Source: Candidatus Hermodarchaeota archaeon
GTDB taxonomy: Archaea; Asgardarchaeota; Lokiarchaeia; Sigyniarchaeales; SOKP01
NCBI GenBank assembly: GCA_048885525.1
Contig: JBHLLP010000004.1
Coordinates: 32,001 to 96,000, forward strand
Reading direction: 5' to 3'
Length of the DNA: 64,000 nt
Every line of letters starts with the position of its first letter. Position 1 is the stretch's first letter. Of the stretch, positions 2,992 through 6,805 are shown piece by piece. The position numbers and the translations under genes are program-made. Under the pieces are notes generated by a model. The model saw only the letters and a list, made by a program, of their open reading frames with translations. It was not told the DNA's origin and did not search any database.

Positions 2992-3098
2992 ATTTCTTAT
3001 ATTTTTCAACTTTTCATGGTAAAAGTAATAAATTTGGAAATTAATATTGCTAAATAGAAAAAAGAATAATTTTTTAATACAATATAGTTTTTTAAAGA

Positions 3099-4106
3099 TT
3101 GGATTTAATGATTGAAAAGATACTTCAAGAGATTGACATTTTATTAAACAATGCTAATTACGAGACGTTAGCATTGGGTAATTTTGCAGTTAAGAAAAGT
3201 AAATTCTGTTTTGATCTTTTAGCTAAAAAAGATGATTTTGTATTTAGTGTAAAGGTTTTTCCAAATATTGATAATTTAAATCTTGAAGTTATTCGTGATA
3301 TTAAATCCTTATCAACAATTCTCAAATCAAAACCTTTACTAATTGGAATTAGGAATAGATATCAGAAGTTAGAAGATAATACAATTTATATAAGAGAAGA
3401 CTTACCATTTATTACACTTAATACACTTGAGAATATACTTAATAATAAATATCCGCACATCTTAGCAAGAAGAGGAGGTGGGGTAATATTTCTGGATGGA
3501 AATTTAATGAAAACGCTAAGAGAAGAACAAACTATAACTAGAAAAGAACTTTCTGAAAAAATAGGCGTAACCAAAAGAACTTTGTGTGCATATGAAAATG
3601 AATCTATGCGCCCTTCTGAGAAAATTGCTGAAAAAATATTAGAGACATTAGAAAATAAGGATCTTTTCAAGAAAATCAATATATTTGCATGGCCAATTAA
3701 AACTGATATCGAAAATAACGAGGAATTTGAAGAAAAGGAATTAAGCCAATTTGAGACTCATGTACAGGATATCATTAATAGTATCGGGCTTTCTTCTTAT
3801 TGGTATAAAAAAGGTTCTATCCCTTTCAAATTGTCTTTATATTCTACTTCAGATAAGAAAGAGTCAGAAGGATTTTATCCTCTCTTTTCTGGTATATCAG
3901 AAGAACAAGGAAAACTGAATGAAATGGATTTTAAGTGTTTAAAAAGATTCACAAATTTATTCCACAAAACCTCATTATTTATAATAAATAACGATATAAG
4001 AATTCCTGAAATATTTAAAAAAGATAAAATTCCTATTGTTAAAATTAAAAATTTAGAAAAAGTAGATGATGAAGAAGAGTTCATTGAACTCATCCATGAA
4101 TCCTAA
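3099..4106 (+). CDS. archaeal HTH transcriptional regulator (COG1395-like)
   Basis: FDLLAKK N-terminus, ARRGG motif, ELSEKIGVTKRTLCAYEN HTH; usual neighbour of rnhB/fibrillarin. Confidence 0.8.
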   Translation: MDLMIEKILQEIDILLNNANYETLALGNFAVKKSKFCFDLLAKKDDFVFSVKVFPNIDNLNLEVIRDIKSLSTILKSKPLLIGIRNRYQKLEDNTIYIREDLPFITLNTLENILNNKYPHILARRGGGVIFLDGNLMKTLREEQTITRKELSEKIGVTKRTLCAYENESMRPSEKIAEKILETLENKDLFKKINIFAWPIKTDIENNEEFEEKELSQFETHVQDIINSIGLSSYWYKKGSIPFKLSLYSTSDKKESEGFYPLFSGISEEQGKLNEMDFKCLKRFTNLFHKTSLFIINNDIRIPEIFKKDKIPIVKIKNLEKVDDEEEFIELIHES

Positions 4107-4812
4107 GGATAAAATAGATTTAATTTGTGGGATAGACGAGGCTGGTAGAATTTAATTCATTTCGAATTTCATGTTAAAAGGCTCTGTCTTAGGCCCTATG
4201 GTTTTATGCGGCATTTGCTTTATTGAATCAAATCTAAGTATTCTTTCTAGAATTGGGGTTAAAGATTCAAAAAAGTTATCACCGCAGAAGAGACGACAAT
4301 TCTCTGAGATTTTGAAAAAAAGTTGTCATTCCCATAAGATAGTTGAAATTAGTGCTCAAGAAATTGATGAGAGAGTAAACAATAAAATTACTATGAATCG
4401 GCTTGAGGAGTTAAAGATGGCTGAACTTATTAACGATTTAAGACCTGATATTATATATATAGATGCTGCTGATGTTAATGAAGAAAGATTTGGAATCTCT
4501 ATTAAGCGTTTATTGAATTATAAGCCAAAAGAAGTTATTTCTAAACATAAAGCGGATGATCTTTTTCCTATAGTTTCAGCAAGTTCTATTGTGGCTAAAG
4601 ATAAAAGAGATACACTAATTAACGAAATTCATAGCAAATATGGAAATTTTGGATCAGGATATCCTTCTGACATGAGAACTATCAAATTTCTAAGAGATTA
4701 TATAAATAAATATAAAAAACCACCAAAATTCGCAAGAAAATCATGGGATACAACCAAAAAAATTATAGAACAAGAACTATCTACAAAAAAAATAACTAAT
4801 TTTCTTAACTAA
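4096..4812 (+). CDS. rnhB: ribonuclease HII, split by a 30-nt putative intron (join 4096..4148,4179..4812; 228 aa)
   Basis: ATG 4096 reads MNPKDKIDLICGIDEAGR then ATT TAA; the same frame resumes GSVLGPMV...GVKDSKKL...YIDAAD...HKADD...GSGYPSD. The ORF-track call at 4171 lacks the catalytic DE. Confidence 0.9.
4149..4178 (+). other. putative BHB-type mRNA intron (30 nt) in rnhB
   Basis: Bulges AGA 4147-49 and AAA 4177-79 flank a 4-bp helix UGGU/GUUA; inner stem AU/AU plus AAUUC/GAAUU; outer exon-exon stem; in-frame TAA at 4153. Confidence 0.75.
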
Positions 4813-5503
4813 ATACTTTTTTTACTACTAATATTATATGATTGGCAGCATACTTATGAATATTTACTCTCTCTATAATATTGTATCCCGCTTTTTCAAG
4901 AATTGTTTTCTCTTTTTCATAAATATACTCAGATTTTTGAAGACTGTCAATTGATTGAGATTTAATTGCAATAATAAGTATACCATTATTCTTTAAGTAA
5001 TATGCACAATTCGATAAGGCGATTTCAGCTTGATTTGGCTGCGCTACATCTTGATAAATCAAATCTATTTCTGTAAAAATATATTTAGCATATTCCTCTG
5101 GAAATCGGGCATCTCCTAATATGGGAATAATATTTGTTCTTTCTGACGTATTTTGAATTAGTTGTCTCATACTTCTTTCTGCAAATTCTACCCCATAAAT
5201 GATTCCAGAATCTATAATATCTGATAAGTGAGAGATAGAAGTACCAGAAGATGCTCCTAAATATAGACATTTTAAATCTTCTGCTAAAAAATTAGTTATA
5301 GGGTTTTTTAAAATTAAAGCTGCTAATTTACTTCTAAATGGATCCCATTCTCTATACTCCAACCCCTTATAATTAATTAGTCTTTCACCATATATATTTT
5401 TTCCAATAACTGCATTCTTAGTATATAATTTTAATTTTTCTTGATAACCAGAAATAAACACATTGGAAAACTTCGGATGGTCTCTAATTTCTATTTTAGA
5501 CAT
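4805..5503 (-). CDS. flpA: fibrillarin rRNA/tRNA 2'-O-methyltransferase
   Basis: YREWDPFRSKLAA, LYLGASSGT, YQDVAQPNQA. Confidence 0.96.
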   Translation of the reverse strand: MSKIEIRDHPKFSNVFISGYQEKLKLYTKNAVIGKNIYGERLINYKGLEYREWDPFRSKLAALILKNPITNFLAEDLKCLYLGASSGTSISHLSDIIDSGIIYGVEFAERSMRQLIQNTSERTNIIPILGDARFPEEYAKYIFTEIDLIYQDVAQPNQAEIALSNCAYYLKNNGILIIAIKSQSIDSLQKSEYIYEKEKTILEKAGYNIIERVNIHKYAANHIILVVKKVFS

Positions 5504-5533
5504 CTTATAATTTTCTCTTTATCTTCTTTTTTT

Positions 5534-6727
5534 TTATGACATTCTTTTTTTACTCTTTCCTGATGTTGCCTTTTTAGGTGGACTAGGATACTTCTCTTCA
5601 ATTTCTTTTATTTTATCTTCGATATCTTTTTTTAATTTATCACCTATAAATTCTCCCTTAAAATTGTCCACCTTAGCAGCAACTCCAATTTTTCCTGCCA
5701 CAACTCTAGCTATCTTCCCTCTTGTCCATGGTGTTGCCGATCTAATCTGATTCCATTGAAAGATTAATCCATGTTTAGGTCTTTTTTCACCCGTCTTTAG
5801 AAAACGATATAATGCTTTTTCAGCACCTAATAATTGAATTCTAGAAGCAGGCATATAAGCTAATTTCTGTAAAGAACCCGCCTTTGCTATTAATTTAGCA
5901 CCTATCAATGGACCGATAAGATTATTAATATTTGGAGCAGCTCTTTCCATTAAATCTTCTAAATGATTTTCTAATTGTTGTCGATATTCATCTAAGGAAA
6001 TTATTTGGTGGGCATAATTTTGGATTATTGAAAGATCAAAATTAGCACCCATCGACTCTGAAGCGTACTTTTCCAACATCTTAATTTTACTTTCATTTAT
6101 AACTAAATTTGTTTTTAGATTTTCGAGAGTAAAATTCTCTCTCGAACCTAATATTGAGATTAATCTTGCTAAAGTTATGTTATCTTCAACAATTTTATCA
6201 GTCAACTCTGGGAAATGCAAACCATACCATTCTCTAAGGTGACTTGAAAATAAACTAATAGATTTCTTTATTACATCTAATACAGTAATAACCTGAGTAA
6301 TTATGTTATCTGTATGACCACTTGCTTTACTTATTTCTCTTCTTGTTAATTCGTCACTTACTCTCTTATATTGATTTAGAATTTCTTCTCTGGTTTTTTT
6401 TATTCCAATTCTTTTTAAATTATCTTCTAAATTTAAACGAAAATTTTTAATTTCTATGGAATTTCTCTGAAAAAATGTTTTATATCCCAACTTTTCTGAA
6501 GTTAGCGCTTCTAATTTTTTATTATCAAATAAGAATTCATTAAAACCAGAATTTTCTAATTGTAATAAAAAATTCTCAAATACTTTTTGAATAACATTAT
6601 TTGATAACGCATCATAAAATTCAAGAATTTTTTTGTAATCATCATCAAAATCAATGAAATTTAAGATGTTTCCAGTCTCATCAAATGCAAATATTCCAAT
6701 TAAAGTATCTGCTATGTAAGATTTCAT
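5534..6727 (-). CDS. nop5: Nop5 (Nop56/58) box C/D RNP protein
   Basis: LREWYGLHFPEL, IQLLGAEKALYR, PKHGLIFQ; adjacent to fibrillarin. Confidence 0.95.
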   Translation of the reverse strand: MKSYIADTLIGIFAFDETGNILNFIDFDDDYKKILEFYDALSNNVIQKVFENFLLQLENSGFNEFLFDNKKLEALTSEKLGYKTFFQRNSIEIKNFRLNLEDNLKRIGIKKTREEILNQYKRVSDELTRREISKASGHTDNIITQVITVLDVIKKSISLFSSHLREWYGLHFPELTDKIVEDNITLARLISILGSRENFTLENLKTNLVINESKIKMLEKYASESMGANFDLSIIQNYAHQIISLDEYRQQLENHLEDLMERAAPNINNLIGPLIGAKLIAKAGSLQKLAYMPASRIQLLGAEKALYRFLKTGEKRPKHGLIFQWNQIRSATPWTRGKIARVVAGKIGVAAKVDNFKGEFIGDKLKKDIEDKIKEIEEKYPSPPKKATSGKSKKRMS

Positions 6728-6805
6728 TATGATTGGCTAATTTATACTTATTTTTCCTTCATTAATAATTATTATAAAACTATAATCATTATTGTCTTTT
6801 AAAAA

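What the first reader, a model, noticed from the sequence alone, without database searches (positions are those of the whole stretch)
4096..4200. Candidate tRNA-type (BHB) intron interrupting the catalytic motif of the RNase HII mRNA
Seen: ATG 4096 encodes ...CGIDEAGR, followed by a 30-nt insert with an in-frame TAA (4153), after which the same frame continues GSVLGPMV. The region folds as a BHB in exact register. Outer exon-exon stem: AGAC 4134-37/GUCU 4186-89, GAG 4138-40/CUC 4182-84, C4142-G4180. Central 4-bp helix: UGGU 4143-46/GUUA 4173-76 (three G-U pairs, so relaxed). Bulges: AGA 4147-49 and AAA 4177-79. Inner stem: AU/AU plus AAUUC/GAAUU. Established: archaeal EndA cuts after the 2nd nt of each bulge, and DEAGRG holds two catalytic acidic residues of RNase HII. 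Applying the cut rule removes 4149..4178 and restores GIDEAGRGSVLGP. Archaeal mRNA introns of this type are known mainly from crenarchaeal cbf5, and I know of none in rnhB. Inference: EndA/RtcB-dependent mRNA splicing in an Asgard archaeon that gates RNase HII expression, conceptually like HAC1/XBP1 non-spliceosomal splicing.
Basis: partly seen in the sequence, partly recalled or inferred. Interest (0 to 1): 0.93.

Follow-up and report, generated by a model that had tools for sequence, protein, structure and literature searches.

The report
tRNA-type intron splitting RNase HII gene
The only RNase HII gene of this Asgard (Lokiarchaeia-type) archaeon is broken inside its catalytic motif by a 30-base intron shaped like a tRNA intron. 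The same intron, with compensating base changes, sits at the same codon in about 80 related species, so the messenger RNA is almost certainly spliced, something shown experimentally for only one other archaeal protein gene (cbf5).

Summary
rnhB (window 4096-4812, +) is interrupted after ...GIDEAG(AG) by 30 nt (4149-4178) that carry an in-frame TAA. Removing them restores DEAGRG. It is the only rnhB in a 99%-complete genome.

In the same family, 82 of 127 genomes with an rnhB match carry an insert at this codon and 43 have none. In the 81 measurable inserts:
- length is 28, 29, 30 or 31 nt;
- all have an in-frame stop, and four also shift the frame;
- all 80 complete genes give a full-length ORF once spliced, and these are under purifying selection.

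The bulge-helix-bulge fold is backed by covariation. The 4-bp central helix is 93.5% paired with 4-5 pair types at its two end pairs. All 9 inner-stem pairs show compensatory changes. Shifted registers pair only 25-45%. Only a cut after the second bulge nucleotide yields Arg where the 5' bulge reads AGU.

The genome encodes EndA alpha and beta, RtcB and archease. No RNA data could be obtained, so splicing is inferred.

This scan had already flagged the same rnhB intron in other genomes, and other mRNA introns in this genome. I confirmed purA and mvk. It is a new member of a known kind.

The parts
4096..4148 (+). rnhB exon 1: MNPKDKIDLICGIDEAG plus the first two bases (AG) of the Arg codon. The start could also be ATG 4066 or 4069.
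   Evidence: LICGIDEAGR is conserved in all 107 family and outgroup loci examined.
4149..4178 (+). 30-nt BHB intron, 17% G+C, excised between the 2nd and 3rd nucleotide of each bulge.
   Evidence: The homologous insert is 28-31 nt long at the same site in 81 measured loci.
4153..4155 (+). In-frame TAA that ends translation of unspliced mRNA two codons into the intron.
   Evidence: All 81 inserts carry an in-frame stop.
4179..4812 (+). rnhB exon 2: the third base of the Arg codon, then GSVLGPMV... to the stop at 4810-4812.
   Evidence: Pfam RNase_HII positions 9-199, E 1.1e-38; ORF list.
4135..4142 (+). 5' strand of the outer (exon-exon) helix, in codons Asp-Glu-Ala.
   Evidence: Pairs with 4180-4188. 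98.3% of cells are paired in the family-conserved register.
4143..4146 (+). 5' strand of the central 4-bp helix (UGGU, exon).
   Evidence: Pairs with 4173-4176. 93.5% paired. Pair types are UA/UG/AU/CG/GU at one end and UG/CG/GC/UA at the other.
4147..4149 (+). 5' three-nucleotide bulge AGA, with the cut between 4148 and 4149.
   Evidence: The bulge reads AGA 76, AGU 3, AGG 1, AAA 1. The third base is free, as expected for an intron base.
4150..4172 (+). Intron stem-loop: stem 4150-4158 with 4164-4172, loop 4159-4163. In this genome two of the nine pairs are mismatched.
   Evidence: All 9 stem pairs show compensatory double changes across the family, and 87.5% of cells are paired.
4173..4176 (+). 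3' strand of the central 4-bp helix (GUUA, intron).
4177..4179 (+). 3' three-nucleotide bulge AAA, with the cut between 4178 and 4179.
   Evidence: The last bulge base is always a purine. The junction codon is therefore AGA 77, AGG 3 or AAA 1, giving Arg, or Lys in one species.
4180..4188 (+). 3' strand of the outer helix, in codons Gly-Ser-Val.

Best explanation
Window 4149-4178 is an archaeal bulge-helix-bulge (tRNA-type) intron in the pre-mRNA of the single-copy RNase HII gene.

Structure. The transcript folds so that exon codons Asp-Glu-Ala pair with exon codons Gly-Ser/Pro-Val to form the outer helix. The last exon bases UGGU pair with the last four paired intron bases to form the 4-bp central helix. 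The rest of the intron forms a hairpin. This leaves two 3-nt bulges on opposite strands.

Proposed mechanism. The heteromeric (alpha-beta)2 splicing endonuclease EndA cuts between the 2nd and 3rd base of each bulge (4148|4149 and 4178|4179). RtcB, helped by archease, joins the exons to give ...GGU AG|A GGC..., that is DEAGRG. It probably also circularises the 30-nt intron. Without splicing, translation stops at TAA 4153 and no catalytic RNase HII can be made, so splicing is obligatory and most likely constitutive.

History. The intron was most likely gained once near the base of this Lokiarchaeia-type family. It was inherited vertically and lost precisely several times.

What is shown: the insert, its conservation, the covarying fold, the splice-site logic, the selection on the spliced frame, and the presence of the enzymes. 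What is inferred: that cutting and ligation actually occur, that these enzymes do it, and that splicing is constitutive.
For: (1) The gene is single-copy. There is only one PF01351 match in a 99.3%-complete genome, and it holds the stop.
(2) In the family, 82 of 127 genomes with a match carry an insert at exactly the Arg|Gly site, 43 have none and 2 are cut by contig ends. They come from many independent assemblies. In a sample of 201 genomes from 29 families of the phylum, every listed interrupted match lies in this family.
(3) Insert lengths are 30 (77 loci), 29 (2), 28 (1) and 31 (1). All 81 hold an in-frame stop and four also shift the frame. The insert therefore cannot be read through.
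(4) Conceptual splicing gives full-length ORFs in all 80 complete genes. Divergence by codon position is 0.255 / 0.155 / 0.476, and single-base codon differences are synonymous to nonsynonymous 2:1. This indicates purifying selection on the spliced frame.
(5) Covariation supports the fold. The central helix is 93.5% paired with 4-5 pair types at its two end pairs. All 9 inner-stem pairs have compensatory changes. The outer helix is 98.3% paired. Shifted registers pair 25-45%, and 0 of 500 shuffles reach the observed values. RNAalifold recovers the central helix and the hairpin on its own.
(6) Splice-site logic fits. The third base of the 5' bulge varies (A, U, G), while the last base of the 3' bulge is always a purine. 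In the three loci with AGU (L069, L070, L094), only a cut after the 2nd bulge base gives Arg. This is the known EndA cut position (PMC2738675).
(7) The machinery is present. There are two EndA homologues: one keeps the catalytic-site His context (..GLEHS..) and the other has ..EKDSA.. there. RtcB and an adjacent archease are also present. Asgard archaea are reported to have the broad-specificity (alpha-beta)2 EndA (PMC5829648).
(8) Exon synonymous sites fit the helix in intron-bearing genes. Glu is GAG in 79 of 80 intron-bearing genes against 11 of 26 intron-less ones. GGA is used for the Gly before Arg in 0 of 80 against 11 of 26. The outer helix is fully paired in 71 of 80 against 6 of 26.
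(9) purA and mevalonate kinase in the same genome are split by 31-nt inserts in the same way.
Against: There is no RNA-level evidence. No RNA run holding this sequence was listed, so neither the spliced junction nor the circular intron has been seen.

In this genome the central helix is weak (one U-A and three G-U pairs). The single-sequence fold is not better than shuffles (z = -1.42), and the MFE picks a slightly different middle.

20 of 81 loci have one mismatch in the central helix, so the motif is partly 'relaxed'.

Outer-helix support comes from pair compatibility only. No outer pair shows a change on both sides, because these bases also code for a conserved motif.

The link between synonymous sites and the intron rests on only four well-supported independent contrasts and is not significant.

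The covariation shuffles do not correct for relatedness.
Confidence: 0.88

Rival explanations
1. Regulated rather than constitutive splicing. The intron would act as a switch, so that RNase HII is made only when EndA/RtcB activity or RNA folding allows, by analogy with HAC1/XBP1.
For: Splicing is obligatory for an active enzyme. Every insert keeps an early in-frame stop. The intron has been kept for a long time in most lineages. The other introns seen in this genome also sit near the 5' end, in catalytic motifs.
Against: There is no sensor, no condition-dependent alternative fold and no expression data. The intron has been lost cleanly at least four times without visible consequence for the gene, which argues against an indispensable regulatory role. 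HAC1/XBP1 sites are twin stem-loops cut by IRE1, not a BHB. No KEN-domain nuclease was found, although that search had no positive control. Retention is equally well explained by the lack of a mechanism for precise deletion.
Confidence: 0.1
2. Programmed translational bypassing. Ribosomes would hop over the 30 nt, as in phage T4 gene 60, with no RNA cutting.
For: There is a short structured gap with a stop codon close to the take-off site.
Against: Take-off and landing codons do not match. AGA is followed at the far end by AAA, ACA or AUA. In the three AGU loci a hop would give Ser, not the conserved Arg. The stop is not adjacent to the take-off codon. The covarying 4-bp helix flanked by two 3-nt bulges is the EndA substrate geometry, not a take-off hairpin.
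Confidence: 0.03
3. Split or truncated gene. Only the part downstream of the insert would be translated, for example from ATG 4171, and the upstream piece would be a remnant.
For: ATG 4171 lies in frame inside the insert in this genome.
Against: Such a product would lack the catalytic Asp-Glu of DEAGRG. Many relatives have no start codon there, for example inserts ending ...acaccaaaa. Exon 1 lies beyond the upstream gene's stop at 4106 and is conserved as protein, LICGIDEAGR, with synonymous variation.
Confidence: 0.03
4. Pseudogene or assembly artefact.
For: An in-frame stop sits in the catalytic motif.
Against: The same insert occurs in 82 independently assembled genomes. The gene is single-copy. 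All 80 complete genes have an intact ORF after splicing, with the signature of purifying selection. The insert also keeps a covarying structure.
Confidence: 0.01

Closest known systems
BHB intron in the cbf5 (pseudouridine synthase) pre-mRNA of Crenarchaeota (Watanabe 2002; Yoshinari 2006; Yokobori 2009, PMC2738675)
   Same: Both are short introns in a protein-coding gene with a BHB or relaxed-BHB fold at the exon-intron borders. In both, cuts between the 2nd and 3rd bulge bases restore the frame. Both sit at a catalytic residue: inside the catalytic Asp codon in cbf5, and inside the Arg codon of DEAGRG, which holds the catalytic Asp and Glu, here. Both hosts have a hetero-oligomeric EndA. Both show a patchy distribution with gain and repeated loss.
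   Different: The gene (rnhB) and the lineage (Asgard, Lokiarchaeia-type family) are different. cbf5 of this genome is uninterrupted. Splicing of cbf5 was shown by cDNA sequencing and in vitro cleavage, whereas here it is inferred. The comparative support here is larger: 81 introns with covariation.
Archaeal tRNA and rRNA BHB introns
   Same: The motif is the same (3-nt bulge, 4-bp helix, 3-nt bulge), and so are the predicted enzymes (EndA, RtcB, archease). Asgard tRNA genes are reported to be heavily interrupted (bioRxiv 10.64898/2026.10.13.758758). In this genome ARAGORN of its 34 tRNA genes with an intron.
   Different: The host RNA is an mRNA. Both flanking helices are built from codons of a conserved protein motif, so the exon sequence serves two codes at once.
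HAC1/XBP1 unconventional mRNA splicing
   Same: Both are non-spliceosomal mRNA splicing events in which the exons are joined by a tRNA ligase (RtcB in animals), and the protein product depends on splicing.
   Different: In HAC1/XBP1 the cleavage is by IRE1 at twin 7-nt-loop hairpins and is induced by stress. Here the substrate is a BHB for EndA, and nothing indicates regulation. This is a functional analogy only.

Membership tests
Archaeal BHB (splicing-endonuclease) intron | Two 3-nt bulges on opposite strands, separated by a 4-bp helix | tested here: met
   Bulges are 4147-49 and 4177-79. The helix is 4143-46 with 4173-76. Across 81 loci the helix is 93.5% paired, with covariation at both end pairs. 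61 loci have 4 of 4 pairs and 20 have 3 of 4.
Archaeal BHB (splicing-endonuclease) intron | Flanking helices on both sides (hBHBh') | tested here: met
   The outer exon-exon helix is 98.3% paired in the conserved register. The inner stem is 87.5% paired, and all 9 of its pairs show compensatory changes.
Archaeal BHB (splicing-endonuclease) intron | Cutting between the 2nd and 3rd bulge nucleotides gives the functional RNA | tested here: met
   The cut restores DEAGRG. The junction codon is AGA, AGG or AAA in 81 of 81 loci. In the AGU loci only this cut gives Arg. The rule is taken from PMC2738675.
Archaeal BHB (splicing-endonuclease) intron | The host encodes EndA and an RNA ligase | tested here: met
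   Two PF01974 genes (alpha-like and beta-like), RtcB and archease are present.
Archaeal BHB (splicing-endonuclease) intron | A spliced product and an excised (circular) intron are observed in RNA | not testable with these tools
   No RNA run was listed for this sequence.
Archaeal BHB (splicing-endonuclease) intron | Cleavage by the cognate EndA in vitro | not testable with these tools
   This needs a bench experiment.
cbf5 pre-mRNA intron (homologous intron) | Located in cbf5, at the catalytic Asp codon | tested here: not met
   cbf5 of this genome (TIGR00425, 427 bits) is uninterrupted. The intron studied here is in rnhB.
HAC1/XBP1-type regulated splicing | IRE1 (kinase plus KEN RNase) cuts twin stem-loops with 7-nt loops, and splicing is inducible | tested here: not met
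   The splice sites lie in 3-nt bulges of a BHB, not in 7-nt loops. No PF06479 match was found, but that search had no positive control. Inducibility could not be tested.
Programmed translational bypassing (T4 gene 60 type) | Matching take-off and landing codons, with a stop directly after take-off | tested here: not met
   The take-off codon is AGA, AGU or AGG. The last three insert bases are AAA, ACA, AUA and others. The stop lies one or more codons after take-off.

The most novel reading that the evidence does not exclude
The rnhB intron is one member of a genome-wide population of EndA/RtcB-spliced introns in protein-coding genes of this Lokiarchaeia-type family. These introns would be preferentially lodged in G+C-rich catalytic-motif codons of an otherwise 29% G+C genome, and their splicing efficiency would set the level of core enzymes. 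That would be a prokaryotic stage of obligatory, possibly regulated, mRNA splicing in the closest relatives of eukaryotes.
Probability: 0.15. Interest if true: 0.9.

Novelty: new member of a known kind. Interest (0 to 1): 0.7.

Why it matters
Archaeal mRNA splicing by the tRNA-splicing machinery has been shown experimentally only for cbf5 in Crenarchaeota. I found no paper in the searchable library that describes such introns in Asgard protein-coding genes.

This case matters for four reasons:
- It has a large comparative data set behind it: about 80 introns of 28-31 nt, covariation, and precise losses.
- It shows a housekeeping gene whose expression depends on EndA and RtcB in the archaeal group closest to eukaryotes.
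- Gene callers will truncate or miss such genes. Here the product would start after the catalytic Asp-Glu, which distorts metabolic and phylogenomic inferences from Asgard MAGs.
- Together with the purA and mvk introns in the same genome and the heavily interrupted Asgard tRNA genes, it suggests that BHB introns have spread from stable RNAs into mRNAs in this lineage. That makes the origin, spread and loss of such introns directly testable.

Tried and rejected
RNA evidence: the look-up of sequencing runs (kind rna) on window 3700-5500 listed no RNA holder. Read laying therefore could not be used.

Genome-wide scan: I wrote a BHB plus ORF-joining scanner (central helix 4 of 4, outer at least 5 of 8, inner at least 2 of 3, intron 14-70 nt). 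It gave 427,575 hits against 419,028 in a parallel-pairing control. After the ORF filter it gave 6,100 against 5,863. A codon-usage filter did not separate real from control, and rnhB itself scores only 0.18 / 0.08. The scan was abandoned. It is both too loose for a 29% G+C genome and too strict for relaxed real cases: the purA outer helix and the mvk central helix both fail it. Its only other plausible hit in the window (34743, minus strand) is the ordinary overlap of the porA and porB genes.

Copies of the intron elsewhere: a fuzzy search (up to 6 mismatches) found two partial look-alikes, at C17:19470 and C22:44850. Both are in non-coding-looking AT-rich context and neither is an intron.

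Rfam: no family matches window 3900-4400.

Independent-contrast test of the exon synonymous sites against intron presence: the direction is always as predicted, but only 4 supported contrasts exist, so it is not significant.

KEN-domain (IRE1) search: no hit, but no control genome rang either, so it is uninformative.

Other genes: elf1 was flagged as intron-bearing next to rnhB in other genomes of this scan, but it gives a single uninterrupted 225-nt match in this genome. cbf5 is uninterrupted. Weaker rnhB matches in other Asgard families (G205, G264, G158, G190, G244) are divergent or cut by contig ends, not interrupted.
Full report
**1. Observation**

The window is AT-rich (29.8% G+C; whole genome 29.4%). 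On the plus strand, ATG 4096 opens a frame that reads MNPKDKIDLICGIDEAGR, then ATT TAA (stop at 4153-4155). Thirty bases after the Arg codon the same frame resumes with GSVLGPMV... and runs to the stop at 4810-4812.

The downstream part matches Pfam RNase_HII over profile positions 9-199 (E 1.1e-38). What is cut off is exactly the part of DEAGRG that holds the two catalytic acidic residues.

Two earlier in-frame ATGs (4066, 4069) could also be the start. In some relatives an in-frame stop lies between these positions and GIDEAG. There, only a UUG or GUG three codons before GIDEAG can serve as the start. Exon 1 is therefore short, about 10-28 codons.

**2. Is it a real, maintained feature?**

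The genome (G000: 87 contigs, 99.3% complete) has a single RNase HII match, and it contains the stop. A profile search of 135 genomes of the same family found a match in 127. I fetched about 110 of these loci and measured the distance between the codons for GIDEAGR and G(P/S)V(L/I)GP.

- 81 loci carry an insert at exactly this site, and one more (L062) visibly has it but runs into Ns.
- 43 genomes have no insert, and 2 are cut by contig ends.
- Insert lengths are 30 nt (77 loci), 29 (2), 28 (1) and 31 (1).
- Every insert has an in-frame stop, and four also shift the frame.

Outside the family I found no interrupted rnhB. This covers 15 genomes with a match from three other families of the same order. 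It also covers a sample of 201 genomes from 29 families of the phylum, where every interrupted match among the 150 listed lies in this family. Five weaker matches that I checked separately are divergent or truncated by contig ends.

Titles of the closest public records are 'Promethearchaeota / Promethearchaeia archaeon' MAGs from many different studies. The organism is therefore an Asgard archaeon of the Lokiarchaeia type, and an assembly artefact is excluded.

**3. The gene is under selection in its spliced form**

I removed the insert by the rule described below. All 80 complete intron-bearing genes then give ORFs of at least 200 aa. Among them:

- mean pairwise divergence is 0.255, 0.155 and 0.476 at codon positions 1, 2 and 3;
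- single-base codon differences are synonymous to nonsynonymous about 2:1.

This is the signature of a functional protein, not of a pseudogene.

**4. The fold**

On the single sequence the fold is unremarkable (z = -1.42). The MFE also differs from a strict BHB in the middle, because the central helix here is one U-A pair and three G-U pairs. The comparative data decide the matter.

I aligned 81 inserts with their exon flanks (A2) and counted pairs for the BHB model.

- In a register with a better outer helix, 92.5% pair.
- When the 3' partners are slid by 1-3 columns, only 25-45% pair.
- 0 of 500 column shuffles reach the observed values.

The three helices behave as follows.

- **Central 4-bp helix:** 93.5% paired. 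Its two end pairs each show several pair types (UA/UG/AU/CG/GU and UG/CG/GC/UA).
- **Inner stem:** all nine pairs show compensatory double changes. In other genera the stem sequence is entirely different, yet it still pairs (g16, g23, g15).
- **Outer helix:** it is made of codons of a conserved motif and therefore shows only one-sided changes. It is 98.3% pair-compatible in the register C4142-G4180, G4141-U4183, G4140-C4184, G4138-U4185, C4137-G4186, A4136-U4187, G4135-C4188.

RNAalifold, run without my model, recovers the central helix, the hairpin and this outer register. The shuffle control does not correct for relatedness. The many different stem sequences in different genera are therefore the stronger argument.

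**5. Splice sites**

The known rule is that EndA cuts between the second and third nucleotide of each bulge (PMC2738675). The data fit this rule.

- The 5' bulge reads AGA in 76 loci, AGU in 3, AGG in 1 and AAA in 1.
- The 3' bulge always ends in a purine.
- The junction codon is therefore AGA (77), AGG (3) or AAA (1), giving Arg, or Lys in one species. Lys also occurs in two intron-less relatives.

In the three AGU loci (L069, L070, L094), removing the insert at codon boundaries would give Ser. Only the BHB cut gives the conserved Arg. Together with the lengths of 28, 29 and 31 nt, this makes RNA-level excision at these exact phosphates the only simple way to obtain the enzyme. In the window the cuts fall at 4148|4149 and 4178|4179.

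**6. Machinery**

The genome has two EndA-domain genes. One keeps the His context of the catalytic site (..GLEHS..). The other has ..EKDSA.. at the aligned place (my reading of the sequences, not a test). This fits the (alpha-beta)2 enzyme with broad, relaxed-BHB specificity reported for Asgard archaea (PMC5829648). RtcB and, next to it, archease are present.

**7. History**

On an RNase HII tree (106 rows, rooted on other families of the order), intron presence needs 11 changes. Four of these are forced by well-supported branches.

Clear cases of intron-less genes nested among intron-bearing ones are:

- L053 within genus g1, where 50 of the 51 genomes with a match have the intron;
- three g21 genes, sister to L064;
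- L110 next to L093 in g23;
- L108 next to L091 in g17.

All outgroup families lack the intron. The simplest reading is one gain near the base of the family followed by repeated precise losses. This is a gene tree with many weak branches, and I under-sampled intron-less g22 genomes. The number of events is therefore rough.

**8. Exon constraint**

Intron-bearing genes use codons that fit the helices.

| Feature | Intron-bearing | Intron-less |
|---|---|---|
| Glu codon is GAG | 79 of 80 | 11 of 26 |
| Gly before Arg is GGA | 0 of 80 | 11 of 26 |
| Outer helix fully paired | 71 of 80 | 6 of 26 |

The direction is the same in every independent contrast, but only four well-supported contrasts exist, so the result is not significant. 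It is suggestive only.

The exon flanks are 57% G+C and the intron 17%, in a gene of 30%. My inference is that Gly/Ala/Pro/Arg-rich catalytic motifs are among the few places in such a genome that can supply stable flanking helices. This may explain why these introns sit in such motifs. Detection bias towards conserved motifs is an equally good explanation.

**9. Context in the genome**

Earlier notes of this scan listed other candidate mRNA introns in this genome. They also listed the same rnhB intron in other genomes, one of them already followed up, and similar introns in other archaeal genes. I tested two of the leads.

- **purA:** it matches its Pfam profile only from position 10. A 31-nt insert splits the Asp codon of GDEGKGK. 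The fold is good: a central helix of three G-C pairs and one G-U pair, and a 6-bp inner stem.
- **Mevalonate kinase:** it matches from position 11. It is split by 31 nt in LFGE|H, with one G-A mismatch in the central helix.

cbf5 and elf1 are uninterrupted here. ARAGORN finds only 34 tRNA genes in this near-complete genome and of them with an intron. This agrees with the heavy interruption of Asgard tRNA genes reported in bioRxiv 10.64898/2026.10.13.758758.

**10. What is not supported**

Nothing indicates that splicing is regulated. The HAC1/XBP1 comparison is an analogy of outcome (non-spliceosomal splicing, ligation by a tRNA ligase), not of mechanism. Repeated clean loss of the intron argues against an essential switch. 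Bypassing, internal initiation, pseudogene and artefact readings each fail specific tests (see the rival explanations).

**11. Novelty**

Full-text searches returned only the cbf5 work for archaeal pre-mRNA BHB introns. They returned nothing on Asgard protein-coding genes or on rnhB. PMC2738675 states that no pre-mRNA splicing had been confirmed for genes other than cbf5, although other introns had been predicted. I therefore class this as a new member of a known kind. The comparative support is very strong, but RNA-level proof is missing.

Noticed in passing
L130:2739-2769 (minus strand; G000:C54:8745-8775): purA is split by a 31-nt insert between G and AC of the Asp codon in the GDEGKGK motif. 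It has a good BHB fold: the central helix GGGG/CCCU forms three G-C pairs and one G-U pair, and there is a 6-bp inner stem. The Pfam match starts only at profile position 10.
   Followed up: partly
L135:2308-2338 (minus strand; G000:C10:11482-11512): Mevalonate kinase is split by a 31-nt frameshifting insert in the motif LFGE|HFVVYG. The BHB is relaxed, with one G-A mismatch in the central helix.
   Followed up: partly
whole genome G000: ARAGORN finds only 34 tRNA genes in a 99%-complete genome and of them with an intron. This suggests many tRNA genes are interrupted at positions the program cannot handle.
   Followed up: no
window 3096-4106 (+): The upstream ORF (336 aa stop to stop) has an HTH_3 domain at residues 139-186. 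It overlaps the rnhB start (ATG 4096) by 11 nt. In relatives this overlap region is conserved in both frames.
   Followed up: no
window 4805-6736 (-): Two convergent genes downstream of rnhB read like fibrillarin (4805-5518) and Nop56/58 (5534-6736), judged by eye from the translations. This was not tested with a profile.
   Followed up: no
G003:C18:144667-145191, G018:C9:18861-19388, G138:C1:1537-2061 (relatives): Some relatives carry a second, weaker RNase HII-domain match (profile positions 1-165) inside much longer open frames of 558-587 aa. This could be a fused or divergent paralogue.
   Followed up: no
G000:C17:19470 and G000:C22:44850: Two stretches share the first 12-18 bases of the rnhB intron (AATTTAATTCATTTCGAA at C17). 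They lie in AT-rich, non-coding-looking context. This is probably chance or low complexity, but the 18-mer identity is unexplained.
   Followed up: partly
L015, L020, L048, L051, L059 (genus g1 relatives): An in-frame stop lies a few codons upstream of GIDEAG, so rnhB must start at a UUG or GUG about three codons before the motif. Exon 1 can therefore be as short as about 10 codons.
   Followed up: partly
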